Of a DNA stretch of 64,000 bases, positions 27,129 through 64,000 are shown piece by piece. The notes beneath the pieces were generated by a model. It was given only the letters and a program-made list of their open reading frames with translations, searched no databases and had not been told where the DNA came from. How positions within the stretch are numbered: position 1 is the first letter of the stretch; every line of letters begins with the position of its first letter. Source of the DNA: Candidatus Heimdallarchaeota archaeon (GTDB lineage Archaea; Asgardarchaeota; Heimdallarchaeia; JABLTI01). The position numbers were made by a program, and so were the translations under genes. Location: positions 7,321 to 71,320 of the forward strand of contig JABCTZ010000006.1 in the NCBI GenBank assembly GCA_018238155.1, written 5' to 3'.

Positions 27129-27746
27129 TCATTTCCATATATTAAGCAAAGCTGATTTCTCAATTGCTATTTTTTCTATTATTTCATCTCGAGAGCTTTC
27201 TGATTTCTGGAGAAATAGATTTATTTCTTTCTCAGTTATTTCAAGATTTGCCAGAATTTTCTTTTCATTTCGCACTGAAAACCCCTCAATATTTAACTGG
27301 AAATTAGAAACTACAATATTCCTCACTTTCAAGAACTCTTCAAAATCAAAAAATCCCTTCTTTGAAGGAGAATGATTCACCTCAACATGATTTGATTTGA
27401 TATGTAAGGTTATTACTTCTTTGGATTCAATATTTAATCCAACTTTCTCGATTGCTTTGCTAATCTGTCTATAACCTGATAAATAAAGTAGAATTTCAGT
27501 ATTCAATGTTTTAGCTAGATTATTCTTCTGTTTAAAAGCTTGTAACGAATAGTGTATGCATGCTTTTAGATGTTGAAATCCTGCTACACTTCCCGAATCA
27601 ATGATTAAAAGATAATTGTGATCGCCAAGCATTTTTTTTTCTTCAAGGATCAGTTTCTTTACGATTTCAACAATCTGATCATTGGAGATTTTTTTGGTAA
27701 AGGTTGCAAGAGAGATTTCTATATGATGGGAACCTAACAGTATCAT
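27129..27746 (-). CDS. cgi121: KEOPS complex subunit Cgi121 with a ~90-aa C-terminal extension
   Basis: LIIDSGSVAGFQHLKACIHYSLQAFKQKNNLAKTLNTEILLYLSGYRQISKAIEKVGL matches the Cgi121 core signature (EILLY.SG.RQI..AI...G). Confidence 0.75.
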   Translation of the reverse strand: MILLGSHHIEISLATFTKKISNDQIVEIVKKLILEEKKMLGDHNYLLIIDSGSVAGFQHLKACIHYSLQAFKQKNNLAKTLNTEILLYLSGYRQISKAIEKVGLNIESKEVITLHIKSNHVEVNHSPSKKGFFDFEEFLKVRNIVVSNFQLNIEGFSVRNEKKILANLEITEKEINLFLQKSESSRDEIIEKIAIEKSALLNIWK

Positions 27747-40383: not shown

Positions 40384-42144
40384 CTAAGATTGCCTTTTAT
40401 AGACAATTGCGTTTGGTTCACCAGCAATATTTGCTACAACAACTAAGTCCTGTTGTAAAAAGAACTCATGAATATCAAAGTAATAATGAGTTACACTTTG
40501 AATCTCTGTTGTCCGAATAATGACATACGTACCTTTCATACTGTATAGCTCAATAAGATGACTATGATTCAGTCTCGCCAATGGCTTTGTAATATGTAGA
40601 CGAATAAAAGTAATTGTGATATTTTTATCCAGATAAGCATAGCCGCCTGTATACCAAACCATCTCAAGAACAATAACTCTTTCAGAATCCTCTTGTTCTC
40701 CTACCCAGTACATTGCATTACAGATACCCGAATTCCATTTCCACATATAATTTTTCTGAACTAAACTCATATACAGTGATGATGTGCTTAATATTGCCAA
40801 CATCAAACCTAAAACTGCATTTCGGTAATGTTTTCTTTTAACTATTTTCGAAAATTTGTAAATGCCATTAGCAACGAAAAGCATGCCAAGTGGGAGAAAG
40901 GTCATAATAAATCTAAACTCTTTATGAGCAATGGATGAGAAAATAGCTAGCCAATAGAACATTAAAAATAAAACGAATACTTTTGATTTGGTCTTTTCCT
41001 TAAAAATAAGTCCAAAAATAAGCAAGATGAAAAAGATGAATATGAAGATAAAGGCAAAATCAGTGAAAAATCCGATAAAATATTGATTCCAAGGTGAAAT
41101 ACCATGATATGCATTATTGCCTTCTATGATATTATACTGAAAATATTTGATAGGTGAGTGGAGAAAGGTGCCCCAGGTAAACAAGTCTAACAATCCTTGG
41201 AAAAAGACCATCAAAAAAGCTCCTCCACAAAAACATGCTAGAGTTTTCAAAGAATCAAAATATTCTCTTTTACTCAAAGGTTGATATGCCTTCTCTTCTT
41301 TATTCGCCTTCAATGTTCTTCTTACATTCTCAGTTTTTCTATAAATATCAACAAGAGGTTTGTATACAATTGCGATTGCAAGAGGAATTCCCATAAGTGC
41401 TCCTGGAAATCGTATCATAAATGATAACCCTAATGAAATTCCTGCTATTATTGAAAGAATGATTTTCCTCTTCATTTTTTCATCTTTTATCATCTTGTAG
41501 ACAAGAAAAATACTTAGAAAGAGAAAATCAGATGATAGAGAATCAGTCATTGTTCGACTCGCCCAAAAAGGGAAAAACCACCAAGTACTACAAATAAAAG
41601 CACTTACTAAGCCTACGGTTTTATTGAACATTTCTTTACCAAATAGATAAGATACTACAACAGTAATAATTGAAAAAAGGGAAAGGAATAATCTAGCAAA
41701 ATACATCAAAACCAATGGGTCAGATATTCCAAAGAGCATAACAAATTTGTAGACACCAACGAGCAGTAAAACAAATAACCATGACCGTGCCCCTCCAAAC
41801 CGATAATCAGAATTGTACTCCCAAGGAATTGTTTCTCCTGATCCATATTCTCCATAAATCCAATAATGAATCATTTCAAGCGTTTGAAAAACTTCATCAG
41901 GATGAACAAATCCCTGAGATTCTTGTGTTGCTAAGAAACGAAGAATAATGGATAAAATGATAATACTCGTCAAAGGTAAATAGTTGAAAATTTTTTTAAA
42001 AAATGTTGTGTCAAAATACTCAGAGAAATTCTTTCTTGTGGTTATATGTTCACTCACTTTTTCTCTTTCGTGAATGGAGAACTGAGTCTTAGTTTGTTGG
42101 TCTCCTTCAAGCAAAAAATTCTTCTCTCCAACATATGTATACAC
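40384..42144 (-). CDS. GT-C fold, GT22-like (Alg9/Alg12/PIG-B type) dolichol-phosphate-mannose-dependent mannosyltransferase
   Basis: The first-loop signature is FVHPDEVFQTLEMIHYWIYGEYGSGETIPWEY...GARSW (compare eukaryotic DE.F.. E..HY.. .G.G..TWEY...iRS). It has more than 10 TM helices and a GTG start. Confidence 0.75.
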   Translation of the reverse strand: MYTYVGEKNFLLEGDQQTKTQFSIHEREKVSEHITTRKNFSEYFDTTFFKKIFNYLPLTSIIILSIILRFLATQESQGFVHPDEVFQTLEMIHYWIYGEYGSGETIPWEYNSDYRFGGARSWLFVLLLVGVYKFVMLFGISDPLVLMYFARLFLSLFSIITVVVSYLFGKEMFNKTVGLVSAFICSTWWFFPFWASRTMTDSLSSDFLFLSIFLVYKMIKDEKMKRKIILSIIAGISLGLSFMIRFPGALMGIPLAIAIVYKPLVDIYRKTENVRRTLKANKEEKAYQPLSKREYFDSLKTLACFCGGAFLMVFFQGLLDLFTWGTFLHSPIKYFQYNIIEGNNAYHGISPWNQYFIGFFTDFAFIFIFIFFILLIFGLIFKEKTKSKVFVLFLMFYWLAIFSSIAHKEFRFIMTFLPLGMLFVANGIYKFSKIVKRKHYRNAVLGLMLAILSTSSLYMSLVQKNYMWKWNSGICNAMYWVGEQEDSERVIVLEMVWYTGGYAYLDKNITITFIRLHITKPLARLNHSHLIELYSMKGTYVIIRTTEIQSVTHYYFDIHEFFLQQDLVVVANIAGEPNAIVYKRQS

Positions 42145-42244: not shown

Positions 42245-44446
42245 TTGAGCGACTATATACATACTATCAGCTTCAAAGTTCTCATAGACTCTGAAGTTGT
42301 AGACTTTACGTTTAGAGTTCCACGAGGAACACTGCTCATCCAAGTATTGGATGAACTCGAAACAACATTGAAAATTCAGCCAAGAGTAATTGCTACAGTA
42401 AATCATGATGGGGAAATAATGATTGTTGAAAACCATTATTCCACCATTGAGTATCTTATACAAAAATTTGGGACTGATTTTTATGCTGGTGGATCAAGTG
42501 TTGTGACATTCAATCATGGAGAATACATTGTTGATTTAGAAGTTCCAGAAGCAATTCCATTTGCTTCATCCTTTAGAACAGCGAGCAAAAGCTTCTCAAT
42601 ATTACCAAGAGATGTCTCTATTGAGAGACAAGATGGTCAAGTAATGGACTATGAAATATTTCGTTTGCCCACTGCTTTTGTGCTAAATTCTTGGGGAAAT
42701 TTTTATCGAATAGTTGATCGCGAATTGGGTGATCCTTTAATAGATCCACCAAAAGTGGACGGAGAAGTATCCTCTCTAGATTCAAATCAAACTTATGAAG
42801 AAAGAACAGAATCAGAACAAACTTCAATGGTCTACCCACCGAAATTTGATGGTTCGGAATCAACAGATACTGTTTCAGAGGTATCGGAATTAGATATTTT
42901 GACTGAACATTTTGTTGAATCCTCCTTACATGAAGATGATCAAGAAGAATCCGATTCTGAACATGTTGAGAGAACTTCTCCTTGGCAAAAAACGGAAGAC
43001 GAGGAGCCCTCTTCAAGTTCAATTGAGCTTGAAGAAGAACCAACAATTGAATCATTGATGGATGAAATCCTCCTTGAAAGTAAAACAGATCAAAACGATG
43101 ATGACGTCGACGGAGAATTTCTAACTCAAGCAATTGAAGAACCATTGGCAGATTCTGTTGTTACAGATGTTTCACAGTTTGATGAGGAATCTGATGACAT
43201 TCCCCTAAGTGAAGTGATTGATTTTGGCGATGAAATAGATGCTTTAGAGGATGAAACAATTATTGATGAGACGGAAGAAGAAGATGCTTCAGAAATCCCT
43301 GCTCAAGATATTTATGAAGTATCAGTCCTCGAGGAAAATGGTTCAGAAGAACAAATTTTTGATGAATTTGTTGATGAAACAGAAGAAATAGCTGCTGATC
43401 TTCCAATTGAAGAAACTTCTTCAACATTTGAGGAAATGATTACAACTTCTTTTACAGAAGAGAAAGAAGAACCTGAAGAGGAAGAAGAATCTGAGGAAGA
43501 AACATTTGTTTCTCAACCATTTGATGACGAGCAATTTATTGAATCCATCAAAGATCATTATGTTGCAGAAGATTCACGCGATGAAATACTAACATCCACA
43601 GCTGAAACAGAAATAATTGAAGATGGTGTTGAAGAAGAATTAGAGAATGAACCTCAAGCATTAGATGATTTGACGGGAGATTTGGTTGTTGAATCTGAAG
43701 ATATTTTCGAATCTGTTGTCAAAGACATCGATGAAGCAATTGAACAATCTGAAATTACTCCTATTCTGAAGGATTTACCTTTAGATCAAAGACTGGAGAT
43801 TAGAAAACAAGAGCTAGTTTCTCTTGAAAAAACTTTGAGTGAAGAAGAGAAACTAAAAGTGAAGATACAACAAAGAATGATTTCCATTGATTATTACGAA
43901 AAAATGAATCCACGAAAAGTATATTCTATATCCGTGAAAATTTCACCTACTCTTTCAACTAAACAAAATGAACATAATATTAAACTGAAGATTGTACCAA
44001 TATTTCCAGGTTGCTATGTAACACCTCACCAAGAGATTGTTGAAATAAATGGTGAAAGTGATATTGATGTAGAATTTACTGTAACACCTCTAATTAGCCA
44101 AGGAACGGTCAACGGAAAACTTGGCATTTGGTATAAAGGAAGGAATATTCTTAATATTAATACTACTTCAAAAATAAGGAATTATTCGGGTTGCATTGTT
44201 AGTAGTATATTGGCATTTCTATTTGGAATAATGCCTTTTCTATTTTTAATATTTAATTTTAATTTTAACAATGCTTTAGCAACAGGATTAAATAACATCT
44301 TTTCAACTACATTGACAGCTAATCTGTTTGTGATTTTTGAAATAATTTTGCTAGTAATTTTTCTTGGTCTAATGGTTGGGTTCATTTTCGTAGGGAAACC
44401 AACCAAACGAAAAATAAAACGCAAATTTTATCCTGTAGCTCCTTGA
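42245..44446 (+). CDS. Membrane-anchored protein with a structured N-terminal domain, a ~370-aa extremely acidic low-complexity region, a beta-sandwich-like domain and C-terminal TM helices
   Basis: 733-aa ORF with a TTG start as given in the track. A long D/E/S/T-rich stretch runs roughly aa 175-545. The C-terminus has three hydrophobic helices (IVSSILAFLFGIMPFLFLIF...; FVIFEIILLVIFLGLMVGFIFV). Confidence 0.65.
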   Translation: MSDYIHTISFKVLIDSEVVDFTFRVPRGTLLIQVLDELETTLKIQPRVIATVNHDGEIMIVENHYSTIEYLIQKFGTDFYAGGSSVVTFNHGEYIVDLEVPEAIPFASSFRTASKSFSILPRDVSIERQDGQVMDYEIFRLPTAFVLNSWGNFYRIVDRELGDPLIDPPKVDGEVSSLDSNQTYEERTESEQTSMVYPPKFDGSESTDTVSEVSELDILTEHFVESSLHEDDQEESDSEHVERTSPWQKTEDEEPSSSSIELEEEPTIESLMDEILLESKTDQNDDDVDGEFLTQAIEEPLADSVVTDVSQFDEESDDIPLSEVIDFGDEIDALEDETIIDETEEEDASEIPAQDIYEVSVLEENGSEEQIFDEFVDETEEIAADLPIEETSSTFEEMITTSFTEEKEEPEEEEESEEETFVSQPFDDEQFIESIKDHYVAEDSRDEILTSTAETEIIEDGVEEELENEPQALDDLTGDLVVESEDIFESVVKDIDEAIEQSEITPILKDLPLDQRLEIRKQELVSLEKTLSEEEKLKVKIQQRMISIDYYEKMNPRKVYSISVKISPTLSTKQNEHNIKLKIVPIFPGCYVTPHQEIVEINGESDIDVEFTVTPLISQGTVNGKLGIWYKGRNILNINTTSKIRNYSGCIVSSILAFLFGIMPFLFLIFNFNFNNALATGLNNIFSTTLTANLFVIFEIILLVIFLGLMVGFIFVGKPTKRKIKRKFYPVAP

Positions 44447-46257: not shown

Positions 46258-47025
46258 CTAAGTATAAAAGGTGCTCTTTTTCCTTCCTTGTTGGGGCGAT
46301 GCAGAAGACATTTCTTGTGTTTGATGAGCTAATTCTGAAAGTTTCTTTTTTATGGATTCAGATTGCTCAACCAAATTTTTGACTTGTACATCTAATTCTT
46401 TTAAATTATTGATAACCTTAATGAGCGCTGCAGCACCTCCCGGATCTGGGAGATTAGGTCTTGTACCTACAAGAAACGCATATCCATCAACATCACTTAT
46501 CATGGTTTTGTTCAAAATTGCTCCTGCAAATCCTTTAATAAATCCACTTTTCAGAGGGGGAATGTTCAATTTCTCAGCTTTGGCTTTAAGCTCTGGTTCT
46601 GCAACCATATACACTTTCCCTTCATCATTTTTATTGAGATAGCCGAATCCATCAAGGATAATAATTTCCTTTGCTCCATGTTTCTCTGTCCATTCCATAA
46701 TAGTATTAGCAATGAAATAGGCAGCTTCCGGAGAGACAGCACTTTCACCAATGAATATTGCAATTTTCGAGCCTTTCTTTCCCATGATTCGATAAGGATG
46801 TCTTAGATACCCATCTAGGAAAACAGCTACAGGTGGTAATGCAACACCTTCTATAAAACCAATGGTTTCAAGGGCTAATTTTTTGCTTATATGTTGAGCA
46901 GCAATTGCTCCAGTTAACCCCATGCCCGGAAAACCAATAATAACTGTTTCTACATCAAAATCCGTTTTGCAGATACATCGAGCATACATCTCGGAATTAT
47001 CAATTAAACTTCTATCATAACTCAT
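46258..47025 (-). CDS. PAC2 (proteasome assembly chaperone 2) family protein
   Basis: VIIGFPGMGLTGAIAAQHI ... IAIFIGESAVSPEAAYFIANTIMEWTEKHGAKEIIILDG is typical of archaeal PAC2/PbaA-B-like proteins. Confidence 0.8.
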   Translation of the reverse strand: MSYDRSLIDNSEMYARCICKTDFDVETVIIGFPGMGLTGAIAAQHISKKLALETIGFIEGVALPPVAVFLDGYLRHPYRIMGKKGSKIAIFIGESAVSPEAAYFIANTIMEWTEKHGAKEIIILDGFGYLNKNDEGKVYMVAEPELKAKAEKLNIPPLKSGFIKGFAGAILNKTMISDVDGYAFLVGTRPNLPDPGGAAALIKVINNLKELDVQVKNLVEQSESIKKKLSELAHQTQEMSSASPQQGRKKSTFYT

Positions 47026-54208: not shown

Positions 54209-55342
54209 ATGCATTATCGTATGTTAGGTAAAACTGGACGAAAAGTATCAATACTTGGTTTTGGAGCAATGCGTTTGCCCACAATAAAACCAGGAGAACA
54301 AGCAATCAAACATGATGAAGCAATAAACTTGATAAGAAGAAGCATTGATGCTGGTGTAAATTATGTTGACACAGCATATAATTATCATAGTGATGAAAGC
54401 GAGCTTGTTGTAGCAAAGGCATTGAAAGACGGATATAGAGATAAAGTTACTCTCGCAACTAAAGCACCGATTTGGAAGAAAGAGTACGATAAAGAAGAAA
54501 GTTTTGATAAATATCTCAAAGAACAATTGAAGAAATTAGATGTTGAAACGATAGATGTGTATCTTTTCCATGCTCTAAATGAAAAAACATGGAAGAAACT
54601 GAATGAAATAAAAGCAATTGAAAGTGCACAGAAAGCAAAAAAAGAAGGGAAAATAAATCACTTGGCTTTTTCATTTCATGATAAACCAGAGCTTTTGAAA
54701 AAAATTATTGATTCTGATGCATTTGAGGTTATGTTGGTACAATACAACATTCTTGATACTGTAAATGAAGAAATGATCAAATATGCATCTGAAAAAGGCA
54801 TAGGTATAGTTATTATGGGACCCGTAGGTGGAGGTCGGCTTGCAGGTGAACCTCCTGAAGATCTAATAAAATATTTGTTACCTGGAAAGAAAACTTTTGC
54901 TGATTTAGCTCTAAGGTATGTGTGGGCTAATAAATACGTTGATATTGCATTATCTGGAATGGGTTCAGACGAAATGCTAGATGAAAACCTTTCATTGGCT
55001 TCTAATGAAGATTATACTTTGACTGATGTTCAAAAAGAAAAGGCGGATGAATTAGGTGTTGCATTCAAAAAACTGACAGATAATCTCTGTACAAACTGTA
55101 AATATTGCATGCCATGCGAACAAGAAGTGAATATTGCTTTTATCTTTCAATCATTGATAAATTTCCAAGTTTATGGACAAGAAGATGCAGCTAAACGAAG
55201 ATATAGTGCAATAGGCAAAGAAGATTGGGCTTCAGGAAAAAATACAGAAGCATGCACAGAATGCGGAGAATGTCTAGAAAAATGTCCACAGAAAATACCT
55301 ATTATTGAACAATTAAAGAAATCACACAAAATTCTGACTTGA
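54209..55342 (+). CDS. Aldo/keto reductase with a C-terminal 4Fe-4S ferredoxin-like domain
   Basis: MHYRMLGKTGRKVSILGFGAMRL is a classic AKR start. The C-terminal cysteine clusters are CTNCKYCMPC and CTECGECLEKCP. I preferred the ATG at 54209 to the TTG at 54128. Confidence 0.85.
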   Translation: MHYRMLGKTGRKVSILGFGAMRLPTIKPGEQAIKHDEAINLIRRSIDAGVNYVDTAYNYHSDESELVVAKALKDGYRDKVTLATKAPIWKKEYDKEESFDKYLKEQLKKLDVETIDVYLFHALNEKTWKKLNEIKAIESAQKAKKEGKINHLAFSFHDKPELLKKIIDSDAFEVMLVQYNILDTVNEEMIKYASEKGIGIVIMGPVGGGRLAGEPPEDLIKYLLPGKKTFADLALRYVWANKYVDIALSGMGSDEMLDENLSLASNEDYTLTDVQKEKADELGVAFKKLTDNLCTNCKYCMPCEQEVNIAFIFQSLINFQVYGQEDAAKRRYSAIGKEDWASGKNTEACTECGECLEKCPQKIPIIEQLKKSHKILT

Positions 55343-55405
55343 TAGAAGATACAATAATAATAGAAAAAATAGCAGTTGAAAAACTGCTTTTTACTTTCTT
55401 TTTTT

Positions 55406-56095
55406 TTATCTCATCCATTGCCCTACTTTGATTCCCTTCCAAGGTTTAATATCACCATTTCTCATACCAATGAAATCTGGGATCATTCTAATGATGATGA
55501 GTATTGTGCATCCCCAAGCAAAAACCATTATCGGCCAAGTATGCCAATAGGTTCCATTAAGTGTAGAAAATTGTCCTACCAAATAAAATATTGTGTATGT
55601 TGTTGCAACGGATGCAGTTGCCATTATACCCGCTACTCCACTGTATCTGATAATTATTAACCAAATAAGTAATGAACCCCACCACACCAGAATACCCCAA
55701 GGATTGATAACAATCATTACTCCTGATAATGCTGCAAATCCTTTGCCTCCTTGAAACTTCATCCAAGGCATCCAGCAATGCCCGGCAAATACTGCAATGC
55801 CACACAGAGCTGCTAGTAAATCCAAATTTACGGGTTCTAAAGATGTTAGAGAACTAAAAAAGAAATATCTGGTTAATAATGTACCGAGAAACCCTTTTGT
55901 AATATCTAAAGACATTGTTAAAGCTGCCCAACTATAGCCTGCTGTTCGGACAGTGTTTCTAGTGCTAACGGAACCTGAACCTTCATTACGCACATCTTTT
56001 CCAGTAACCAATTTAACAATAATCCAAGCAAATGGAAGAGAACCGAAAAAGAAACCTATAATTGGTGCTAAAATAAATGGATAAATCATTTGCAT
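55406..56095 (-). CDS. plsY: PlsY-family glycerol-3-phosphate acyltransferase (bacterial-type)
   Basis: FGSLPFAWII...GKDVRNEGSGSVSTRN, LDITKG and AGHCWMPWMKFQGGKGFAALSG match the three conserved PlsY motifs. The protein is a multi-TM protein. Confidence 0.85.
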   Translation of the reverse strand: MQMIYPFILAPIIGFFFGSLPFAWIIVKLVTGKDVRNEGSGSVSTRNTVRTAGYSWAALTMSLDITKGFLGTLLTRYFFFSSLTSLEPVNLDLLAALCGIAVFAGHCWMPWMKFQGGKGFAALSGVMIVINPWGILVWWGSLLIWLIIIRYSGVAGIMATASVATTYTIFYLVGQFSTLNGTYWHTWPIMVFAWGCTILIIIRMIPDFIGMRNGDIKPWKGIKVGQWMR

Positions 56096-56256
56096 AATCT
56101 CCTGTTACTGACGAATACTCTTGTTCATCTTTAAATAGATTATTCCCCCACTCTATGATGGTTCAAAGGTCCATTCTTTAATAAAAGTAATTCTTTGGCA
56201 AAACCTAAAAAAGCAGAAGAGCTTAAGAAAGATAACAAACCAAATCGAAAGAGAGA

Positions 56257-56547
56257 ATGATTATCTTGGTGTCATGGAAAGAAGAATTTAAACAAGCTGG
56301 TTTAGAGTTGGGATTTGATCTATTATTAGTTGCACTTATCGTTTGTTGGGTAGCTGCCATTTTAACAGCTATTCTAGAAGTTTCTCTTTGGGTTGTCTTT
56401 GGACTTTTCTTTTTGGGTTGTGTTTTCTTATTTTCAATGTTCACTATCTCAAGAAATTCGGAAGAAGCAGAGAAAAAAGCTCTTGCACTAGAAAATGTTG
56501 AAGACACAGAGAATGAAGCTGAAGAAGAAAGTGATGATTCAGAGTGA
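56257..56547 (+). CDS. Small 2-TM protein with an acidic tail (tentative)
   Basis: Two clear hydrophobic helices followed by a D/E-rich C-terminus. I preferred it to the overlapping antisense Ser-rich ORF. Confidence 0.4.
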   Translation: MIILVSWKEEFKQAGLELGFDLLLVALIVCWVAAILTAILEVSLWVVFGLFFLGCVFLFSMFTISRNSEEAEKKALALENVEDTENEAEEESDDSE

Positions 56548-56762
56548 CCGTTTAATACAAAGGACAATAATTAGCTTCTTTTCTTTTCTGTTATTCCTAT
56601 AACACAACACTTTTTTGTTCAAACTTCAAAATGATTCTAGCAGATAATTTGTTGTCAAAAATGAAATTGCCTTTATTGTAACAAATGAGGTACATTTACA
56701 GATACGAATAAGTAGAGTGATTTGATAAGAAATTAATAGAATCACATCTGGAGCGAATAAAA

Positions 56763-58409
56763 ATGCCTGAAATAGGTCTTGGAGAATTCGATGATCAAGA
56801 AGTATTGAAGAAATCACTTGAGATATTTGAAAAAAAGAAAAAAGAAATTCAAGATCACATTCTTGAAAGAACAGCAGTCGTTCCAGATGAAACTTTAACA
56901 GAACTTGAAAAACAATTCAATATTTCCACAGAATTAGCGAAAGCTGTTTTCGTACTAGAGTTTGAGTATCACATTCCAAGGGAACTTTCTGCAAATCACT
57001 ATAAAGCTGAAATGAAAAGACTGACACAAGCACAATATGAATTGCCTGATATCTACTCTTTTAGAGTAAGATTTTCAATGGAAGAAGGTTTTTGGATTAA
57101 ATATCTAGTAGTGGACCTTCCAAAAAAACTTGAGCAAAAAATGCTCAAATTGAAAAAAATCTATTGTTCTCTATTTGGCGATCTTGCTGCAGACAAAGAA
57201 GATGCAGCTGTATATATTATTGAAAGAGCTTTTATTTGCAGTGAGATAGTAAGACCAATTATCCATTCTTGGATGAAAGAGCATCATCGAGCAAAGTATT
57301 CTGATTGTGTTGAAATTTTCTTGTGCAGCATCTCTCGAAAAGCGAGAGAAAAGTGTTTACTGTTAGTTGAAGAAATTAGCAATAGATTTCATTCACAGAT
57401 TGATTCATTAAGAAGTATCATTACTGAAATTAGACCACAAGGATGGATATTGAATGCAAAAGAAGAGTATAATAAACTTTCAGAGAAATTGCTTCTATTC
57501 GATAAAGAAAATTATCTTGATTGGCGCTTGACTGCAGAAATCATCTTAGAAATAATGTTGTTTAGGGAATTTGATGGATCAACAAAGGAAGAATCAGTTT
57601 TTCTAGTTAAAGAAATGCCGAAACAGAAAGAAAATATTGTCACTGAAATGATGGTCACAAAAAAAGAAAAATTCATCACAGATGATATTTCGGTGATTCT
57701 TACAAAAATAATTGAATTACCAGAAAATGATCAAAAGCAGCTGATCGTAGAAATGGTACAAGAAAGCTATGATTTTGCTATAATTAAAAATCGTACAAAG
57801 CCAGCTATTTTCTCTAAGGTCTTTCTAGAAAGGATTATGGCAGAACTAATGGTTAGAAGTAATGAAATAACCAAAATAACAAAGAAATTTGATATCCAAC
57901 TAATGTTTCGCTTGTCTCCCGCAGGAGGAAAAGATCGTCGAAATTTAGATCTAGATGAAAAAATAACGGAATTACTTGAAGAATTTGTGGTGGATATTTT
58001 AAAAAGAAGAGATGAGCTAAAAATCGTTTCAACAGAAAAAACAATGAAAACAGCCGTTGAACCATCTCATGAAGAAATCGAAAAAAACTCTGAAGTGCAC
58101 TCTGCAATAAAAAATCAAAGAGCAGGAAAAATAAAGGATTCAACTGAAAAGGAATTATGGCTATTTGTAAGAGATGAATACTTGAAAGAATTATTTGATA
58201 GTGAGAAGGAACTAGTTGCCGGGGCAAAAATTTTAAAGAAATATTCACTTGATCTGGGATTATTAATGACAGAGGGAGAAGCAATATCATATTTAACCTC
58301 TGAACTCGAAAAAAGGGGTTTTTCTTTTGAAAACTCAAGCAAAGAAGATATTGATTCAAATTTGTGCAAAAGCATTTTCAGGCAGTTGAAAGAATTGAGA
58401 AAGTATTAA
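56763..58409 (+). CDS. Hypothetical helical protein (548 aa)
   Basis: Long ORF with no recognisable motif. It is the first gene of the 56.7-61.8 kb cluster of uncharacterised proteins. Confidence 0.6.
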   Translation: MPEIGLGEFDDQEVLKKSLEIFEKKKKEIQDHILERTAVVPDETLTELEKQFNISTELAKAVFVLEFEYHIPRELSANHYKAEMKRLTQAQYELPDIYSFRVRFSMEEGFWIKYLVVDLPKKLEQKMLKLKKIYCSLFGDLAADKEDAAVYIIERAFICSEIVRPIIHSWMKEHHRAKYSDCVEIFLCSISRKAREKCLLLVEEISNRFHSQIDSLRSIITEIRPQGWILNAKEEYNKLSEKLLLFDKENYLDWRLTAEIILEIMLFREFDGSTKEESVFLVKEMPKQKENIVTEMMVTKKEKFITDDISVILTKIIELPENDQKQLIVEMVQESYDFAIIKNRTKPAIFSKVFLERIMAELMVRSNEITKITKKFDIQLMFRLSPAGGKDRRNLDLDEKITELLEEFVVDILKRRDELKIVSTEKTMKTAVEPSHEEIEKNSEVHSAIKNQRAGKIKDSTEKELWLFVRDEYLKELFDSEKELVAGAKILKKYSLDLGLLMTEGEAISYLTSELEKRGFSFENSSKEDIDSNLCKSIFRQLKELRKY

Positions 58410-58964
58410 AGATGATTTTTTTTATCTGTCCTCGAAAATTGAAAATGTTTTACTCGATGTTTTTTGATTCACAGTATCGGATTGATTGCTAGCAATAACC
58501 TCTTTCTTACGATGGCTTCGGTTCAAGTTTTCAGCCCAAAAATCTAGTTCAATTGGCATTCTTTTTCTTTACCTTCTCAAGATTAGTTTGTAGTGAAAGA
58601 ATATTTCAGTAATTCAATAAAAACAACTGCAATATCGGGATAGTTACCCCAATATTAGCCTTTAAAAGAATTTGGAGAGGAAAAATAAACAAAAAGAAGG
58701 GTCTTCATAGCGACAAAAACACTGATGCTTTTTCCCACAAAGCATAAAAAGAATCAATAAAACGTACAATTAGAAACTAATTTGTCTTCAAATCTAGAAA
58801 AGCTATTTGAAGTTGCTTGTGTAAAAATATGCTCTTTGTTTGACCACTCAGAAGGACGGCTAGAACAGAAAACGCTACAAGATAAACAAGCACTTGGTAC
58901 TGATAGATTTTGAAGGAAATGGATTACAGATTAAATAATTGATAGTAGGGTAGATGATAGAACA

Positions 58965-60197
58965 ATGTCAAATATAGAAGATTTCACAAAAGAATTAGAA
59001 ATTTCTACATTCTCAAAACCAATTCTAAAAGAAATGGGGATAAAGTCAATCTTCTTAGTTACATTTGATATTATTCTAGGACCAATAGCTTATGTCAATA
59101 CATTGACACCTGAAAAAAGTGAATACCTTGAATTCTTGGAAAATCTAGCGCATCTAGGAGAATTTTATACTGGGATATCACACGCTCAAATTGATAAAGT
59201 AACAACAAGAACCGGAGAAGAGATGATAGTTGGACGCGCAACAAGAAAAGTAAATGAAATGGAATTAATTGATATTGCTGTAGCTATAGTAGACTCAACA
59301 GAATATCAAAATGAAATTGTTAAGATGCTGAAATTCGTAGTTCGTACTTCATATGGTAATCCAAAGAACTTTTGTGATTTATTAGACAGAGTACTGCTAG
59401 AATATCAAGACCTCGGAAAGAAAAATGCCAAGGCTGGAAAATTCGCTGTATATAAAGACACATCAAAAGCAAAAGTGACAAATATAGCAAAGATATATCA
59501 CAATTGGAAAGGCGTGCTCTTCATAGATTTTGAAAAAGATAACGTAAACAGCTCATTTATGCCTGATTGGATTGAAGCAAGCAAAATAAATTCACAGGAA
59601 ATAGCACAAAAAACAAGAAATATGTACGCAGAAGGAGTTATCCTTCCAAGATCAAAACAAATTTTTTCGATGGTAAGCATAAAGGGTAAACAAGTAATTG
59701 CCGTATCAACAAATAATTCACGGTTTGTAACAATAATATATCCCACAGCAGACGGAATGACAAAAATATCAACTATAGCAGAAAATATGGATATTATTAA
59801 CGAAGCTTTGAGCGAAGTAGGAATGCAAGTCAATACAGAAGCAATGAAAAGTACTCTTGAAATGATCGATAAAAGAATAAGAGTAAATGACACAAGTGCA
59901 TTAATGAAAGAAGTAATTGTTCTAATGTTGAGAGCAGAAGAGCTGATGCCAAAGAACAAGATACAACAAAAAGAATTCGAAACATTTCAAGGAGGAATAC
60001 AAAAGAAATATTTCAAAGGATTAAGAAAAGCATTCGAAGAATTTGATGGCACAAAAACAATACTAGAAATTGCTCGAAAAGCAAATGTTAGTTTGGATAA
60101 AATGGCTGATTTTGTGTCGTTTTGTATGACAAGGGGAATTGTACAAGTTTTTACTAAAAATGGCCGAACAAGAACACCTGAAAGGAAAATTGTCTAA
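58965..60197 (+). CDS. Hypothetical protein with two longin/roadblock-like modules and a C-terminal winged helix
   Basis: The beta-beta-alpha-beta-beta-beta-alpha pattern occurs twice (IFLVTFDIILGPIAYVN... and GVLFIDFEKDNV...IFSMVSIKGKQVIAVSTNNSRFVTIIYP...). The C-terminal wHTH-like segment is TILEIARKANVSLDKMADFVSFCMTRGIVQVF. Confidence 0.6.
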   Translation: MSNIEDFTKELEISTFSKPILKEMGIKSIFLVTFDIILGPIAYVNTLTPEKSEYLEFLENLAHLGEFYTGISHAQIDKVTTRTGEEMIVGRATRKVNEMELIDIAVAIVDSTEYQNEIVKMLKFVVRTSYGNPKNFCDLLDRVLLEYQDLGKKNAKAGKFAVYKDTSKAKVTNIAKIYHNWKGVLFIDFEKDNVNSSFMPDWIEASKINSQEIAQKTRNMYAEGVILPRSKQIFSMVSIKGKQVIAVSTNNSRFVTIIYPTADGMTKISTIAENMDIINEALSEVGMQVNTEAMKSTLEMIDKRIRVNDTSALMKEVIVLMLRAEELMPKNKIQQKEFETFQGGIQKKYFKGLRKAFEEFDGTKTILEIARKANVSLDKMADFVSFCMTRGIVQVFTKNGRTRTPERKIV

Positions 60198-60370
60198 GTA
60201 AAAACAGTAACAAACAAACAATAAATTGAAAATAAGACTTATTTTTGATAAAAAAATTCACAAACAAAATAGCGATACATTCTTTTGTATTGAATAAAAG
60301 AGGCTATTACTTCACAAAATGAAGCGATAGAATAAATGAATAAATAAGTTGGGTGTGTGTGAAATTGACA

Positions 60371-60652
60371 ATGCAATATGTAGTTAAGAAAATGGCAAAA
60401 ATACATTGTGCAAAAGGACCAAAGGGCTGCAAGAAATGTCAAGAATATGTGAAAGAGATAAGATATGCATTATTGGATACCAATCCACAAGAAAATGAAT
60501 TAGCAGCAAGACCAATGATAGAGTTGGAAATAGCTAGCGGCGAAAAAATTTGGGTAACTTTTGACATAATAGCCTATTTTGATACATTGGATGCAGTAAA
60601 AGAATATGCAGTAAAAAAAGGCATTGAAATTGAGCAAATAATTGAAGAATAG
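60371..60652 (+). CDS. Small hypothetical protein
   Basis: 93-99 aa ORF (ATG at 60371, GTG at 60353) with a CAKGPKGCKKC cysteine pair near the N-terminus. Confidence 0.45.
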   Translation: MQYVVKKMAKIHCAKGPKGCKKCQEYVKEIRYALLDTNPQENELAARPMIELEIASGEKIWVTFDIIAYFDTLDAVKEYAVKKGIEIEQIIEE

Positions 60653-60760
60653 AATTTATGAAGGTTTATTTGCCAAAAAGAATCAATGATCCTTCCATTC
60701 AATAAAAAACAGTAAATGTGTAAGAATATAACTAAGACATAGATCGAATAAAATGATCTA

Positions 60761-61813
60761 TCAGAAACTTAAACCAAAAAAAGAATGCTTCTCAATTTGT
60801 TGTTTAAGATCAGGTTTTATCTGTATGCAAATATCAATAACTAAAGTCATTAAATCTTCTGAAGTCTGTTTAGTAAATTTCTTGAATTGTTCACTGTCAA
60901 TTTTATCATTTGAACACAATCTTAACAAGTCAATACATTTTTGAATAATATTACTCATTTCCTTTTCATATGTTGCACGAATTTCAATTTCTGTTTTTTG
61001 CTTTCGCAAATTTTTTATCAAAGCACGAAGAATTTTGGTACTTTTTGAACCATAAACAGTTCTCTTTTCAAATGAAATAGTTGTTACATCAGCATTTTTA
61101 TAATTTTTAATAGATGCCTGAGGAACGCCAATAACATTAACTGTTTGAGGAATTACATATGAGCTTGAATAGTTGATCACTTTGTGAAAGGGAAAAGGAG
61201 TAAGTAAATTCAGAATAGAAACTGTATTAGAGGCAGATAATATATCACCACAAATGATTATTGTTTTGTAAGACAATAAGGCATATATAACGGCATCTAA
61301 ATTGGATTTTATATGCTCTAGAAGAAACGTGATAGAAACATCAGTAGCGGTATTCATCTTAGTACGAAAAACAGCTAAACTCTCTTCTGAAAACCTTTTC
61401 ATTTCAGTTGAGCTTCGATCAAAAGAGGATAAAACATTATCAATTATTTTATCAATTAGTTGTTCAGCTTCATTGGAGAAGCAGTAATCTGCGTGAATCT
61501 CTTTAATTTCAAATGAAATTTTGGATGCTATTTTAGATAGAATCTGATCGATTATTTCCCTTTTAAAAGCTATATTGATATCCTTAATAATGACAACACC
61601 AAAATACTTTCTTATTTCCATATATATTTCATGTGTTTTTGTAGCAAAGTATTTCGCTTCACCAACATCTATTGTAGATAGAAATGCCTGTATGGCTGAA
61701 ATAGCTCCTGAAAAAAGAGTAGCCCTGTCAATAGATTCTTTTTCTATTGATTGCAATTTTCTGAAATATAGAGGAAGTCCACTTCGAGAAATAATATAAA
61801 CAGCATCTAGCAT
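60761..61813 (-). CDS. Longin (uDENN-like) + cDENN-like + helical (dDENN-like) protein
   Basis: N-terminal longin pattern (AVYIISRSGLPLYF / ATLFSGAISAIQAFLSTI / YFATKTHEIYMEIRKYFGVVII). The core DAVIYALLSYKTIIICGDILSASNTVSILNLLTPFPFHKVINYSSSYVIPQTVNVIGVP resembles the cDENN signature. The tail is helical. Confidence 0.6.
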   Translation of the reverse strand: MLDAVYIISRSGLPLYFRKLQSIEKESIDRATLFSGAISAIQAFLSTIDVGEAKYFATKTHEIYMEIRKYFGVVIIKDINIAFKREIIDQILSKIASKISFEIKEIHADYCFSNEAEQLIDKIIDNVLSSFDRSSTEMKRFSEESLAVFRTKMNTATDVSITFLLEHIKSNLDAVIYALLSYKTIIICGDILSASNTVSILNLLTPFPFHKVINYSSSYVIPQTVNVIGVPQASIKNYKNADVTTISFEKRTVYGSKSTKILRALIKNLRKQKTEIEIRATYEKEMSNIIQKCIDLLRLCSNDKIDSEQFKKFTKQTSEDLMTLVIDICIQIKPDLKQQIEKHSFFGLSF

Positions 61814-62008: not shown

Positions 62009-62320
62009 CTATTTAACTAACATCTTATATGTTCTAAAGCTTAACAAAACCATAATTAGAACGAAAATTGCACCAAATAAATAAACAATGGGTGTTATAA
62101 TTTGATTGATAATATCAATTTCTAATATAGCACTAATTATTGCCATGATATAACCAAAAGTAAAGAAAATAACAAGAACGAAAGCAATTTTCCAATACTT
62201 TGCTATTGTAGCGCCATCAGGAAATATTGAAATGATTTTCAAAATCAGATAAAAGCAAAAGCTGAAGCTTATAATTCCGATAGATGCTGAAATAATTGTG
62301 AATATACCTAGTAAATCCAT
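62009..62320 (-). CDS. Small 3-TM membrane protein
   Basis: 103 aa made almost entirely of three hydrophobic helices. Confidence 0.5.
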   Translation of the reverse strand: MDLLGIFTIISASIGIISFSFCFYLILKIISIFPDGATIAKYWKIAFVLVIFFTFGYIMAIISAILEIDIINQIITPIVYLFGAIFVLIMVLLSFRTYKMLVK

Positions 62321-63084
62321 TTTGACATCACATCCTTCTATTTGGAAATAGTTATAAATCTTTTTTTAGCACAAAAAAAACACTTATTATAAAAGTAACA
62401 GTAAACAGATAAAAAATACTCTCTCCAGAGGAAAAATTAACAGTAAAAGTAAAGAGAAAATATTTTATTCCAACAACGGGAATAATAAACATGAGGAAAG
62501 GTTTTAATACTACTGCTTCAAAACAAAACAAGTCAAAAGACGAAAACTCGGGATGGAACGCAAGAGAAATAAAAACTTGCAGACCATTTGCTTATTGGAG
62601 CAAAAGTTTAAAAACAAAAAACTTCACCGACAGAGATTAGTTTCTTCATGAAACTGCTCGCACCGTATATGAAGGCGACAATCCGACTAGGAGCATACCG
62701 CTCTAGAATGACAGGTTGCAAAAATCCAAGCGAGCAAACAATGAAAAAAGAAACGAAAAATCTCAAAAAAATAAATAATATTAAATAACAATAAATAACA
62801 TCAAAAAATAATAATCATTATGTTTACTATGAGATCCCGAAATAAAACGGTTCGGGGTTGATGAAAACCAACTCGCGCTATTATATATTACCCCCAATAG
62901 AATAAAAGCAAAATTGCATGGTTAAAAGACATGTAAAGGTTGTACAAACTAATAATTCCTACTGTTAGAAAGCAAATATTTTTCTAGTGGAAAGTAAGAT
63001 CTTGTTAATAGTAAACCCGTACACAAAAAACCCTGTTATGTTTATACCATAAATGGTCCATAACTAATCAAAAACAGGAATCAA

Positions 63085-64000
<916 letters not shown>

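What the first reader, a model, noticed from the sequence alone, without database searches (positions are those of the whole stretch)
60761..61813. Archaeal protein with a longin + DENN-like core + helical tail, the tripartite DENN architecture
The first ~105 aa have the longin topology beta-beta-alpha-beta-beta-beta-alpha.

Residues ~160-250 (nt ~61064-61336) align by eye with the cDENN signature of eukaryotic Rab-GEFs:
- ORF: LDAVIYALLSYKTIIICGDILSASNTVSILNLLTPFPFHKVINYSSSYVIPQTVNVIGVP
- DENND1-type: ILYIFTALLLERRIIFIADKLSTLSKCCHAMVALIYPFAWQHTYIPVLP...TPFLIGL

This is followed by ADVTTISFEKRTVY, which resembles the DENN 'vvvvDLd.n.i' strand. The remainder is an all-helical tail, as in dDENN.

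DENN, folliculin and SMCR8 modules are regarded as eukaryotic membrane-trafficking GEF modules built on a longin domain. A compact prokaryotic version would bear on the origin of Rab/Arf/Rag regulation.

The gene sits in a 5-kb block (56763-61813) of otherwise unannotatable proteins. One of those (58965-60197) also looks multi-longin. No small GTPase gene is visible in the window.
Basis: partly seen in the sequence, partly recalled or inferred. Interest (0 to 1): 0.8.

Follow-up and report, generated by a model that had tools for sequence, protein, structure and literature searches.

The report
Heimdallarchaeal longin–DENN protein, folliculin-like

Summary
The ORF at 60761-61813 (minus strand, 350 aa) is real and conserved. 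Orthologues show 72, 66, 40 and 37% identity.

**Fold.** With a 45-sequence alignment AlphaFold2 gives a confident model (pLDDT 87). It has an N-terminal longin fold (ββαβββαα, residues 1-139), a linker helix, an α/β core (about 156-258) and a helical tail (259-350). The best Foldseek PDB matches are all longin+DENN proteins: C9orf72 (6e-8), folliculin (9e-8) and DENND10 (3e-7).

**Sequence support.** It is weak but always falls on the same core motif. This includes weak SMCR8_C Pfam hits and hhalign versus human FLCN at E 5e-4.

The structural reading is supported. The novelty claim is not: Liu et al. (2020/21) reported Asgard DENN proteins, including longin+DENN in Heimdallarchaea.

**New detail.**
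- The DENN module is shared (E 1e-40) with relatives that carry a GP-motif, FLCN-type longin.
- This clade instead carries a different longin, 37% identical to free-standing 149-aa longins.
- It has no canonical GP motif and no conserved arginine finger.

I infer a non-catalytic or GEF-like platform for a small GTPase. No GTPase gene is nearby, and the function is untested.

The parts
60761..61813 (-). Complete ORF, 350 aa plus stop: longin-DENN protein
   Evidence: ORF list. Orthologues at 72/66/40/37% identity. AF2 pLDDT 87.2. Foldseek top hits are C9orf72, FLCN and DENND10.
61397..61813 (-). Residues 1-139: longin domain (β1 4-9, β2 14-19, α1 28-45, β3 53-57, β4 61-67, β5 71-78, α2 85-102, α3 114-139). 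It carries a G12-L13-P14 turn before β2 and the strongly conserved TLFSGAISAIQ helix α1.
   Evidence: AF2 secondary structure. Foldseek hits to Sec22b, Ykt6, TRAPPC1/Bet5, sigma-adaptin, zeta-COP and MglB. 37% identity over residues 1-137 to the free-standing 149-aa longin P0007. The paralogue family gives weak Pfam hits to Fuz_longin_1, Robl_LC7 and Sybindin.
61349..61396 (-). Residues 140-155: low-confidence hinge (136-139) and linker helix (143-155) between the two modules
   Evidence: AF2 pLDDT falls below 50 at residues 136-139, followed by helix 143-155. The hhalign match of the DENN module starts at residue 156.
61040..61348 (-). Residues 156-258: α/β DENN core (cDENN-like). It contains the motif VIYALLSYKTIIICGD-ILSASNTVSILNLLTPFPF...YSSSY...NVIGVP and the β-hairpin 244-254.
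   Evidence: AF2 pLDDT 93-98. Foldseek to FLCN C-terminal domain 3v42_A. hhalign to human FLCN 365-424 at E 1.2e-3 and 5e-4. SMCR8 723-756 at E 0.05. PF27109 SMCR8_C (weak) recorded for the 100%-identical fragment P0003 and for P0004 and P0008.
60764..61039 (-). Residues 259-350: all-helical tail (dDENN-like), ending in the conserved FFG motif
   Evidence: AF2 helices 260-271, 275-300, 307-316, 319-332 and 336-345. It is part of the 191-column hhalign match to the GP-longin/DENN relatives (E 1.1e-40). P334 is nearly invariant across 45 relatives.
62009..62320 (-). Context only: 103-aa protein with about three hydrophobic transmembrane segments, 195 nt upstream on the same strand. Involvement is not shown.
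   Evidence: ORF. Hydropathy scan. Same position and strand in L001, L002 and L004, with 71-76% identity. Absent next to the more distant orthologue P0004.
58965..60197 (+). Context only: conserved 410-aa Asgard protein, convergent with the target. Its N-terminus reads IFLVTFDIILGPIAY (a GP motif) and R91/R94/K95 are invariant. It is a candidate GAP-type longin, unproven.
   Evidence: 25 homologues at 44-100% identity in Heimdall-, Gerd- and Thor-labelled MAGs. Invariant columns. hhalign to GP-longin relatives gives only E 0.13 over 21 columns. No target homologue lies near it in the more distant genome L018.

Best explanation
The gene encodes a soluble two-module protein of the DENN superfamily, from an Asgard archaeon of the Heimdallarchaeaceae lineage. 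The N-terminal module is a longin domain (residues 1-139). The C-terminal module is a folliculin/SMCR8/C9orf72/DENND10-like DENN module, with an α/β core at about 156-258 and a helical tail at 259-350.

**Shown.** The fold is established, as is its homology to other Asgard DENN modules. The protein is also a mosaic. The same DENN module occurs in relatives behind an FLCN-like 'GP-motif' longin, whereas this clade carries a different longin. That longin is closest to free-standing 149-aa longins of the same lineage, which weakly resemble the Mon1/Fuz, roadblock and sybindin families.

**Inferred.** Like eukaryotic longin-DENN proteins, it probably dimerises through its longin and/or DENN modules, with itself or with a paralogue, and offers the longin platform to a small Rab-, Rag- or Arf-like GTPase encoded elsewhere in the genome. 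It lacks a canonical GP motif and a conserved arginine finger. I therefore expect it to act as the non-catalytic partner or as a GEF-like or scaffolding subunit (FNIP/NPRL3/DENND-like), not as an FLCN-type GAP.

**Confidence by step.** Fold and superfamily assignment about 0.9. Regulator or platform for a small GTPase about 0.5. Non-GAP role about 0.6, conditional on the GTPase link.
For: **Structure**
- AF2 with 45 sequences gives pLDDT 87.2, above 93 for residues 150-300.
- Foldseek PDB hits: C9orf72 6.2e-8, FLCN 9.2e-8, DENND10 3.4e-7, further FLCN/FNIP2 and CSW chains, FLCN C-terminal domain 3v42_A 1.8e-4 (TM 0.55), and many longins.
- Chain identities were checked: 6ulg_L and 6nzd_H are folliculin and 6lt0_C is C9orf72.

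**Sequence**
- PF27109 SMCR8_C (weak) is recorded for P0003 (identical C-terminal fragment), P0004 and P0008.
- Among relatives, the Folliculin_C, C9orf72-like and Folliculin Pfam models are hit at E 1e-4 to 3e-3.
- hhalign of the family profile against human FLCN gives E 1.2e-3 and 5e-4 on target 176-234. SMCR8 723-756 gives E 0.05.

**Mosaic**
- hhalign of the target clade against the GP-longin relatives aligns only residues 156-347 (E 1.1e-40).
- The N-domain is 37-45% identical to the standalone longin P0007.

**Motifs**
- The turn before β2 is G-L-P.
- The β4-β5 loop reads RKY / SKN / RKF / SEK / SNN in the five orthologues.

**Taxonomy**
- All named relatives are Asgard: Heimdallarchaeaceae, Hodarchaeales and Thorarchaeota.
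Against: - The protein itself reaches no curated Pfam or NCBIfam threshold. Every sequence link to eukaryotic DENN proteins is marginal (E 5e-4 to 0.1) and covers only about 35-60 residues.
- Whole-chain TM-scores to PDB hits are low (0.33-0.42) because the inter-domain orientation differs. I could not run a domain-by-domain superposition.
- No small GTPase, roadblock or second longin gene lies in the 64-kb window or beside five relatives examined. The GTPase link therefore rests on analogy only.
- The arginine-finger and GP criteria come from eukaryotic GAP complexes and may not transfer. MglB-type roadblock GAPs need no arginine finger.
- The N-terminal part of the AF2 alignment mixes two non-alignable longin types, and helix α1 has only pLDDT 58-75.
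Confidence: 0.8

Rival explanations
1. It is a catalytic FLCN/SMCR8/NPRL2-type GAP subunit. It would insert an arginine from the longin β4-β5 loop into the nucleotide pocket of a Rag- or Arf-like GTPase.
For: The best structural matches are members of GAP complexes (FLCN, C9orf72-SMCR8). The window protein has R68-K69 in the β4-β5 loop and a G-x-P turn before β2. The Traffic 2025 paper proposes GAP activity for Asgard FLCN/SMCR8-type longins.
Against: R68 is S in three of five orthologues, and the loop is not conserved. The motif is G-L-P, not the GP that the paper says defines GAP longins and is absent from FNIP2, NPRL3 and DENND proteins. The N-domain does not align at all with the GP-motif longins of the sister clade.
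Confidence: 0.1
2. It is a GTPase-independent adaptor or scaffold. The longin and DENN modules would bind other proteins, for example a membrane protein, as DENND10 does inside Commander or as longin domains do in SNAREs and adaptor small subunits.
For: No GTPase is nearby in any context examined. A 3-TM protein gene sits upstream on the same strand in three genomes. The closest free-standing longin, P0007, overlaps by 14 nt a 247-aa multi-TM protein gene in four contigs. DENND10 and sigma-adaptin/zeta-COP longins are among the structural matches.
Against: Asgard GTPase regulators are generally not in operons with their GTPases (Tran et al. 2024), so the absence of a neighbouring GTPase says little. 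The 103-aa neighbour is lost next to the more distant orthologue P0004. Most characterised longin-DENN proteins act on GTPases.
Confidence: 0.2
3. It is a tri-longin (Mon1/Ccz1/Fuz/HPS1-type) Rab-GEF relative and not a DENN protein.
For: Paralogues of the N-domain hit Pfam Fuz_longin_1 (12 of 46, best E 6e-5). MON1 appears weakly in a PDB profile search (E 0.39). The G-x-P turn resembles the Mon1 'GKP' motif; this last point is from my own recollection and was not tested.
Against: The region after residue 156 matches DENN modules and FLCN-CT, not longin domains. No Mon1, Ccz1 or Fuz chain is in the top 50 Foldseek hits. Only one longin topology is present in the model.
Confidence: 0.03
4. The resemblance to DENN is convergent or artefactual: a generic α/β sandwich plus a helical bundle produced by AlphaFold from a modest alignment.
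For: Sequence links to eukaryotic DENN proteins are all marginal. Whole-chain TM-scores are 0.33-0.42.
Against: Four independent weak sequence signals fall on the same motif in the same register: FLCN, SMCR8 and C9orf72 by hhalign/hmmsearch, and the Pfam SMCR8_C model. Foldseek probability is 1.00, and seven of the top eight hits are full-length longin-DENN chains. The first, shallow-alignment model already showed the same order of secondary-structure elements.
Confidence: 0.05

Closest known systems
Folliculin (FLCN) and its C-terminal DENN domain (PDB 3V42, 6ULG, 6NZD)
   Same: Same two-module layout: an N-terminal longin, then an α/β DENN core with a helical tail. Foldseek gives 9.2e-8 for the full chain and 1.8e-4 (TM 0.55) for the isolated C-terminal domain. 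The core motif aligns with FLCN 365-424.
   Different: The target is much shorter (350 vs 579 aa). It has no GP motif (G-L-P instead) and no conserved equivalent of Arg164. It has no N-terminal zinc/cysteine region. No FNIP-like partner or Rag GTPase has been identified. The Pfam Folliculin and Folliculin_C thresholds are not met.
C9orf72 / SMCR8 (CSW complex; PDB 6LT0, 7MGE, 6V4U)
   Same: C9orf72 is the best Foldseek match (6.2e-8). Weak Pfam SMCR8_C hits fall on the C-terminal module. The SMCR8 723-756 motif AIYSLLSGRTLVVLGEDEAIVRKLVTALAIFVP matches target VIYALLSYKTIIICGD..SILNLLTP.
   Different: No GP or WD motif, no SMCR8-type arginine finger and no WDR41-like partner. Sequence E-values are only 0.05-0.1.
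Asgard DENN-domain proteins of Liu et al. 2020/2021 (bioRxiv 10.1101/2020.10.19.343400, Fig. 5b)
   Same: Asgard origin, DENN module, and the longin+DENN organisation reported for Heimdallarchaea. The paralogue families are lineage-specific and patchy.
   Different: The target is not in the described conserved operon (LAMTOR1-like roadblock + Rab-like GTPase + DENN); no such neighbours are present. Whether this exact family is one of their asCOGs could not be checked.
Asgard 'FLCN/SMCR8-type' GP-motif longins (Traffic 2025, PMC12290439)
   Same: The sister clade (P0006, P0008-P0014, P0030 and others) has an FDxxxGP longin in front of the same DENN module. It probably belongs to this described class.
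   Different: The target clade replaced that longin with a non-GP longin. The N-domains are not alignable.
   Same: Tripartite layout. Like DENND proteins, the target lacks the GP motif.
   Different: No DENND1-type chain is among the top 50 Foldseek matches. The Pfam DENN, uDENN and dDENN models give no hit. GEF activity is untested.

Membership tests
DENN superfamily (longin + DENN module; FLCN/SMCR8/C9orf72/DENND) | N-terminal longin (uDENN-equivalent) fold, β-β-α-β-β-β-α-α, with no N-terminal helix | tested here: met
   AF2 elements E4-9 E14-19 H28-45 E53-57 E61-67 E71-78 H85-102 H114-139. Foldseek hits to Sec22b (TM 0.68), Ykt6 (0.63), TRAPPC1 and sigma-adaptins.
DENN superfamily (longin + DENN module; FLCN/SMCR8/C9orf72/DENND) | Central α/β DENN core followed by an all-helical d-DENN-like tail | tested here: met
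   pLDDT 93-98 for residues 150-300. Full-length matches to C9orf72, FLCN and DENND10 at E 6e-8 to 3e-7, and to isolated FLCN-CT 3v42_A at E 1.8e-4, 182 columns, TM 0.55.
DENN superfamily (longin + DENN module; FLCN/SMCR8/C9orf72/DENND) | Significant match to a curated sequence model (PF02141, PF03455, PF03456, PF11704, PF16692, PF15019, PF27109) | tested here: inconclusive
   The protein itself gives no hit at E up to 10 in the local Pfam. There are precomputed weak PF27109 SMCR8_C hits on P0003, P0004 and P0008. Relatives hit Folliculin_C, C9orf72-like and Folliculin only at E 1e-4 to 3e-3. hhalign against FLCN gives E 5e-4.
DENN superfamily (longin + DENN module; FLCN/SMCR8/C9orf72/DENND) | Binds and regulates a small GTPase (GEF or GAP), usually as a homo- or heterodimer | not testable with these tools
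   No biochemical or multimer-folding tool was available. No GTPase gene is in the window or in the relatives' flanks.
Longin-domain GAP subunits (FLCN, SMCR8, NPRL2; Asgard GP-motif longins) | GP dipeptide at the end of the β1-β2 loop or start of β2 | tested here: not met
   The target and its four orthologues read G-[LV]-P (G12-L13-P14). The sister clade has true GP (LGPIPIF and similar). The definition is from PMC12290439.
Longin-domain GAP subunits (FLCN, SMCR8, NPRL2; Asgard GP-motif longins) | Conserved arginine finger in the longin β4-β5 loop (FLCN R164, SMCR8 R147) | tested here: not met
   Loop residues 68-70 read RKY, SKN, RKF, SEK and SNN in the five orthologues. The FLCN R164 position was worked out from the FLCN sequence as I recalled it. 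Only residues 336-579 of that recalled sequence were checked against the PDB, and R164 lies outside that range.
Tri-longin-domain Rab GEFs (Mon1/Ccz1, Fuz/Inturned, HPS1/HPS4) | Three consecutive longin domains | tested here: not met
   Only one longin topology is in the model. The C-terminal part matches DENN modules, and no TLD chain is in the top 50. The weak Fuz_longin_1 hits concern the N-domain paralogues only.
Conserved Asgard DENN operon of Liu et al. (LAMTOR1-like roadblock + Rab-like GTPase + DENN) | Adjacent roadblock and Rab-like GTPase genes | tested here: not met
   The neighbours are a 103-aa TM protein, a 99-aa protein and 410-aa and 548-aa proteins of unknown family. There is no P-loop G-domain in 64 kb. 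An HMM search with the family profiles finds no paralogue in the window.

The most novel reading that the evidence does not exclude
The target clade may record an archaeal 'head swap' on a DENN module. An FLCN-like, GP-motif and arginine-bearing (GAP-type) longin would have been replaced by a Mon1/Fuz/roadblock-like platform longin taken from a free-standing 149-aa gene of the same lineage. That would convert a GAP-type regulator into a GEF-type or non-catalytic partner. This would be a prokaryotic parallel to, or a snapshot of, the split between FLCN/SMCR8-type GAPs and GP-less DENND/FNIP-type proteins in eukaryotes. The two archaeal forms could heterodimerise through their shared DENN modules, as FLCN and FNIP do.
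Probability: 0.12. Interest if true: 0.6.

Novelty: new member of a known kind. Interest (0 to 1): 0.3.

Why it matters
Longin-DENN proteins control Rab, Rag and Arf GTPases in eukaryotic membrane traffic and nutrient signalling. Their presence in Asgard archaea bears on how that control system arose, and this gene adds one more compact (350 aa) Heimdallarchaeal example. In every public record returned here this gene's orthologues are unnamed and its more distant relatives are labelled 'hypothetical protein', and it is invisible to curated sequence models.

The useful extra is the modular picture. The same DENN module is found behind two unrelated-looking longin heads, one with and one without the GAP-type GP motif. 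That gives a natural pair for testing what the longin head contributes to GAP versus GEF or scaffold behaviour.

It does not change the current view. Archaeal DENN proteins have been in the literature since 2020-21.

Tried and rejected
- **Single-sequence searches found nothing.** Pfam, NCBIfam and PDB phmmer searches with the protein alone gave no significant hit.
- **First AF2 run was unusable.** With a 3-sequence alignment it reached only pLDDT 36. It was replaced by the 45-sequence run.
- **Second large-database search was skewed.** The profile search was dominated by one 243-aa DENN-core family (P0079-like) and added little.
- **Locus scans had narrow reach.** With the narrow one it found only two loci.
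- **The window's own contig is not on record.** Exact-sequence look-ups of the target and the 548-aa neighbour failed.
- **Fusion hypothesis rejected.** I tested whether the target is a fusion of two adjacent genes, a standalone longin plus a DENN-only gene. The gene after standalone longin P0007 is a multi-TM protein with no similarity to the DENN module.
- **Conserved-partner hypothesis rejected.** I tested whether the 410-aa neighbour is a conserved partner. In a more distant genome the 548/410-aa pair persists without any target homologue nearby, and the orthologue P0004 has no 410-aa homologue nearby.
- **410-aa neighbour as a recognisable longin or DENN: not demonstrated.** hhalign gave E 0.13 and 0.22, and a Pfam scan of 24 members gave nothing relevant.
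- **No paralogue in the window.** HMM search with the family profiles found only the target.
- **C9orf72 link is not significant on its own.** hhalign to C9orf72 gave E 0.097, although in the expected register.
- **Supplement unavailable.** Supplementary sequences of the Traffic 2025 paper were not held.
Full report
**Observation.**

The finding's coordinates match an ATG-initiated ORF of 350 aa on the minus strand, 60761-61813. The window is AT-rich (about 32% GC) and ends in the 5' part of an archaeal 16S rRNA gene (63084-64000).

The ORF is a real gene:
- Full-length orthologues of 353, 350, 350 and 353 aa share 72, 66, 40 and 37% identity and the same N-terminus.
- Two of them lie in the same gene order as in the window: 103-aa membrane protein, target, 99-aa protein, 410-aa protein, 548-aa protein, PlsY.
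- The closest genome record is titled 'Candidatus Heimdallarchaeota archaeon isolate CSMAG_2352'.
- Named members of the wider family are all Asgard: Heimdallarchaeaceae, Hodarchaeales and Thorarchaeota.

**Sequence searches.**

The protein alone matches no Pfam, NCBIfam or PDB sequence at a meaningful level. An exhaustive HMMER search of 1.84 billion cluster representatives, using a 3-sequence profile, found 91 relatives. They fall into two groups:
- About 45 proteins of 330-370 aa (some longer) that match mainly residues 140-347.
- About 45 free-standing proteins of about 147 aa that match residues 1-137.

Pfam scans of these relatives gave only sub-threshold hits, but the hits are informative. 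For the long group they are Folliculin_C (2 members), C9orf72-like (2) and Folliculin (1). For the short group they are Fuz_longin_1 (12), Robl_LC7 (9) and Sybindin (5).

A newer Pfam model, PF27109 SMCR8_C, is recorded as a weak hit for three proteins: P0003 (a 210-aa fragment 100% identical to the target's C-terminal part), P0004 and P0008.

**Structure.**

AlphaFold2 with three sequences failed (pLDDT 36). With the 45-sequence alignment it gave pLDDT 87.2 and pTM 0.67. The model has four parts:
- A longin domain: β 4-9, β 14-19, α 28-45, β 53-57, β 61-67, β 71-78, α 85-102, α 114-139.
- A hinge and a linker helix (143-155).
- An α/β core (about 156-258, pLDDT 93-98).
- Five helices running to residue 345.

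Foldseek against the PDB returned 40 hits at E of 1e-3 or better. The top ones are C9orf72 (6lt0_C, 6.2e-8), folliculin (6ulg_L, 9.2e-8; 6nzd_H), DENND10 (8p0v_M, 3.4e-7), 8dhb_J/I, 7mge_B and 6v4u_A. All of these are longin+DENN chains aligned over about 400 columns. Below them come the isolated FLCN C-terminal DENN crystal structure (3v42_A, 1.8e-4, 182 columns, TM 0.55) and a long list of longin and roadblock domains (TRAPPC1, sigma-adaptins, zeta-COP, Ykt6, Sec22b, VAMP7, MglB, MP1/p14). I confirmed the chain identities by sequence.

Whole-chain TM-scores are only 0.33-0.42 with large rmsd. That is expected when two rigid modules are oriented differently. I could not run a per-domain superposition.

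**Sequence-level bridge to eukaryotic DENN proteins.**

- A profile of the family aligns target 176-234 to human FLCN 365-424, at E 1.2e-3 with the full-length profile and 5e-4 with a DENN-only profile.
- The DENN-only profile finds SMCR8 723-756 (AIYSLLSGRTLVVLGEDEAIVRKLVTALAIFVP) at E 0.05 among all PDB sequences.
- C9orf72 218-254 aligns in the same register at E 0.097.

None of these is convincing alone. Their agreement in register, together with the fold match, makes homology the economical reading.

**Modular history.**

A profile-profile comparison set the target clade (five sequences) against thirteen more distant full-length relatives. It aligns only residues 156-347, at E 1.1e-40. 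The N-terminal 155 residues are not aligned at all, either there or when the standalone-longin profile is used.

The distant relatives start with ...FSVFDxxxGPxPIFST.... This is the 'GP motif' that Traffic 2025 (PMC12290439) describes as specific to GAP-type longins (FLCN, SMCR8, C9orf72, NPRL2) and to a class of Asgard longins. Most of them also have an arginine somewhere in the β4-β5 loop.

The target clade instead begins MLDAVYIISRSGLPLYFRK. Over residues 1-137 it is 37-45% identical to the free-standing 149-aa longin P0007 of Heimdallarchaeaceae. So one DENN module is combined with two different longin heads. This kind of domain shuffling is what Liu et al. describe as typical of Asgard eukaryotic signature proteins.

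**Catalytic-motif tests.**

The turn before β2 is G12-L13-P14, not GP. The position equivalent to the FLCN arginine finger (R164, in the β4-β5 loop) reads RKY, SKN, RKF, SEK and SNN in the five orthologues, so it is not conserved. The R164 mapping rests on my recollection of the FLCN N-terminal sequence; only residues 336-579 of that recollected sequence were verified against the PDB.

The best-conserved feature of the N-domain is helix α1, TLFSG(A/V)ISAIQxFL. L33 and F34 are invariant, and G36 and A40 nearly so, across 46 sequences. By analogy with roadblock and longin dimers, this helix contributes to the dimer and GTPase platform. That last point is inference, not a test.

**Context.**

There is no small GTPase in the window:
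- A six-frame Walker-A scan found only four out-of-context matches.
- Pfam scans of essentially every ORF of 100 aa or more show metabolic and informational genes: hydantoinase A/B, a PAS histidine kinase, PlsY, an aldo-keto reductase, an Alg9-like GT22, PAC2, CGI-121, Hsp70/GrpE, S7/S12 and others. They show no Ras-family, roadblock or longin hit.
- HMMs of the family find no paralogue in the window.
- The flanks of P0004, P0008, P0079 and P0007 also lack GTPases.

This does not match the conserved roadblock + Rab-like GTPase + DENN operon of Liu et al.. It does fit Tran et al.'s remark that Asgard GTPases are generally not in operons with their regulators.

Two membrane-protein associations were noticed. 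A 103-aa, roughly 3-TM gene lies 195 nt upstream of the target on the same strand in three genomes. A 247-aa multi-TM gene overlaps the 3' end of the standalone longin gene P0007 by 14 nt.

The target is the fastest-evolving gene of its neighbourhood. It shows 66-72% identity between genomes, against 80-86% for the 548- and 410-aa genes.

**The 410-aa neighbour.**

It is conserved at 44-87% identity across Heimdall-, Gerd- and Thor-labelled MAGs. It begins with IFLVTFDIILGPIAY (a GP motif) and has invariant R91, R94 and K95. By eye that would fit a GAP-type longin.

The profile comparisons are not significant, however: E 0.13 over 21 columns against the GP-longin relatives, and E 0.22 against the standalone longins. 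Its only notable database signal is an unexpected match of residues about 264-385 to the helical subdomain of Get3 (3ibg_A, E 6.4e-5). Ten of 24 members also give weak SHOCT_2 hits.

In a more distant genome the 548/410-aa pair persists without any target homologue nearby. The two are therefore not a conserved pair. No structure-prediction quota was left to test the longin idea.

**Literature and novelty.**

- Liu et al. [quoted passage not shown]
- The Arf-family preprint lists DENN domains among known Asgard homologues.
- A 2026 Nature Communications paper notes DENND10-like folds in Archaea and Bacteria and calls the DENN fold widely distributed.
- Traffic 2025 describes the GP-motif Asgard longins.

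The protein is therefore a new, unannotated member of a known kind. The modest new point is the alternative, non-GP longin head on a shared DENN module.

**Mechanism.**

*Shown:* the fold, the Asgard-restricted family, the mosaic architecture, the absence of conserved GAP motifs, and the absence of a linked GTPase gene.

*Inferred:* the protein dimerises and presents a longin platform to a small GTPase encoded elsewhere, acting as a non-catalytic, GEF-like or scaffolding subunit.

*Rivals:* an FLCN-type GAP (about 0.1), a GTPase-independent adaptor perhaps tied to membrane proteins (about 0.2), a tri-longin GEF relative (about 0.03), and convergence or artefact (about 0.05).

**Dead ends.**

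See 'tried and rejected'.

Noticed in passing
window 58965-60197 (+): Conserved 410-aa Asgard protein with no family assignment. Its N-terminus reads IFLVTFDIILGPIAY (a GP motif) and R91/R94/K95 are invariant across 24 homologues, which is reminiscent of GAP-type longins. Residues about 264-385 give an unexpected profile hit to the helical subdomain of Get3 (3ibg_A, E 6.4e-5). Ten of 24 members give weak SHOCT_2 hits, and there is a weak winged-helix hit at the C-terminus.
   Followed up: partly
window 56763-58409 (+): 548-aa charged, probably helical protein with no Pfam or NCBIfam hit. It is 80% identical in related MAGs and stays next to the 410-aa gene even in a more distant Heimdall genome (L018 7766-9427 and 10001-11224).
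   Followed up: partly
L003/L010 (GCA_018238125.1 contig JABCTY010000028.1) vs window 54971-61525: This public contig is 99.97% identical to the window up to position 61525, inside the target gene, and then continues with unrelated sequence. Its gene call is therefore a 210-aa fragment (P0003) lacking the longin domain. This is probably an assembly chimera, or possibly a strain rearrangement.
   Followed up: partly
L011 6001-6450 and 6437-7180 (also L012-L014): The free-standing 149-aa longin closest to the target's N-domain (P0007) overlaps by 14 nt a 247-aa gene with about 6-7 hydrophobic segments, which suggests a longin plus membrane-protein operon. The target itself has a 103-aa, roughly 3-TM gene upstream (window 62009-62320).
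   Followed up: partly
L001 3102-3920 and L004 4523-5338: Related genomes carry an extra 271-272-aa gene of unknown family (69% identical to each other) between the 99-aa and 410-aa genes. It is absent from the window.
   Followed up: no
window 40384-42144 (-): 586-aa Alg9-like mannosyltransferase (Pfam Glyco_transf_22, E 1.5e-44), a eukaryote-type glycosylation enzyme family. A 733-aa ORF with no Pfam hit lies next to it (42245-44446).
   Followed up: no
window 31828-38754 (-): Giant 2308-aa ORF whose only Pfam signal is one TPR_12 stretch. A 1423-aa TPR protein also lies just downstream of the target's orthologue P0004 (L009 9486-13757).
   Followed up: no
window 46258-47025 (-), 27129-27746 (-), 984-1325 (-), 8977-10230 (-): Other archaeal/eukaryote-like genes: a PAC2 proteasome-assembly chaperone, CGI-121 (a KEOPS subunit), NAC with a UBA domain, and an Rce1-like CAAX protease.
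   Followed up: no
window 63084-64000 (+): 5' 905 positions of an archaeal 16S rRNA gene, cut by the window end. It could be used to place the organism precisely.
   Followed up: no
window 60353-60652 (+): 99-aa protein convergent with the target and conserved (79-80% identity) in related genomes. It has a weak sub-threshold Pfam hit to Pyrid_ox_like (E 3.6e-4), and its function is unknown.
   Followed up: no
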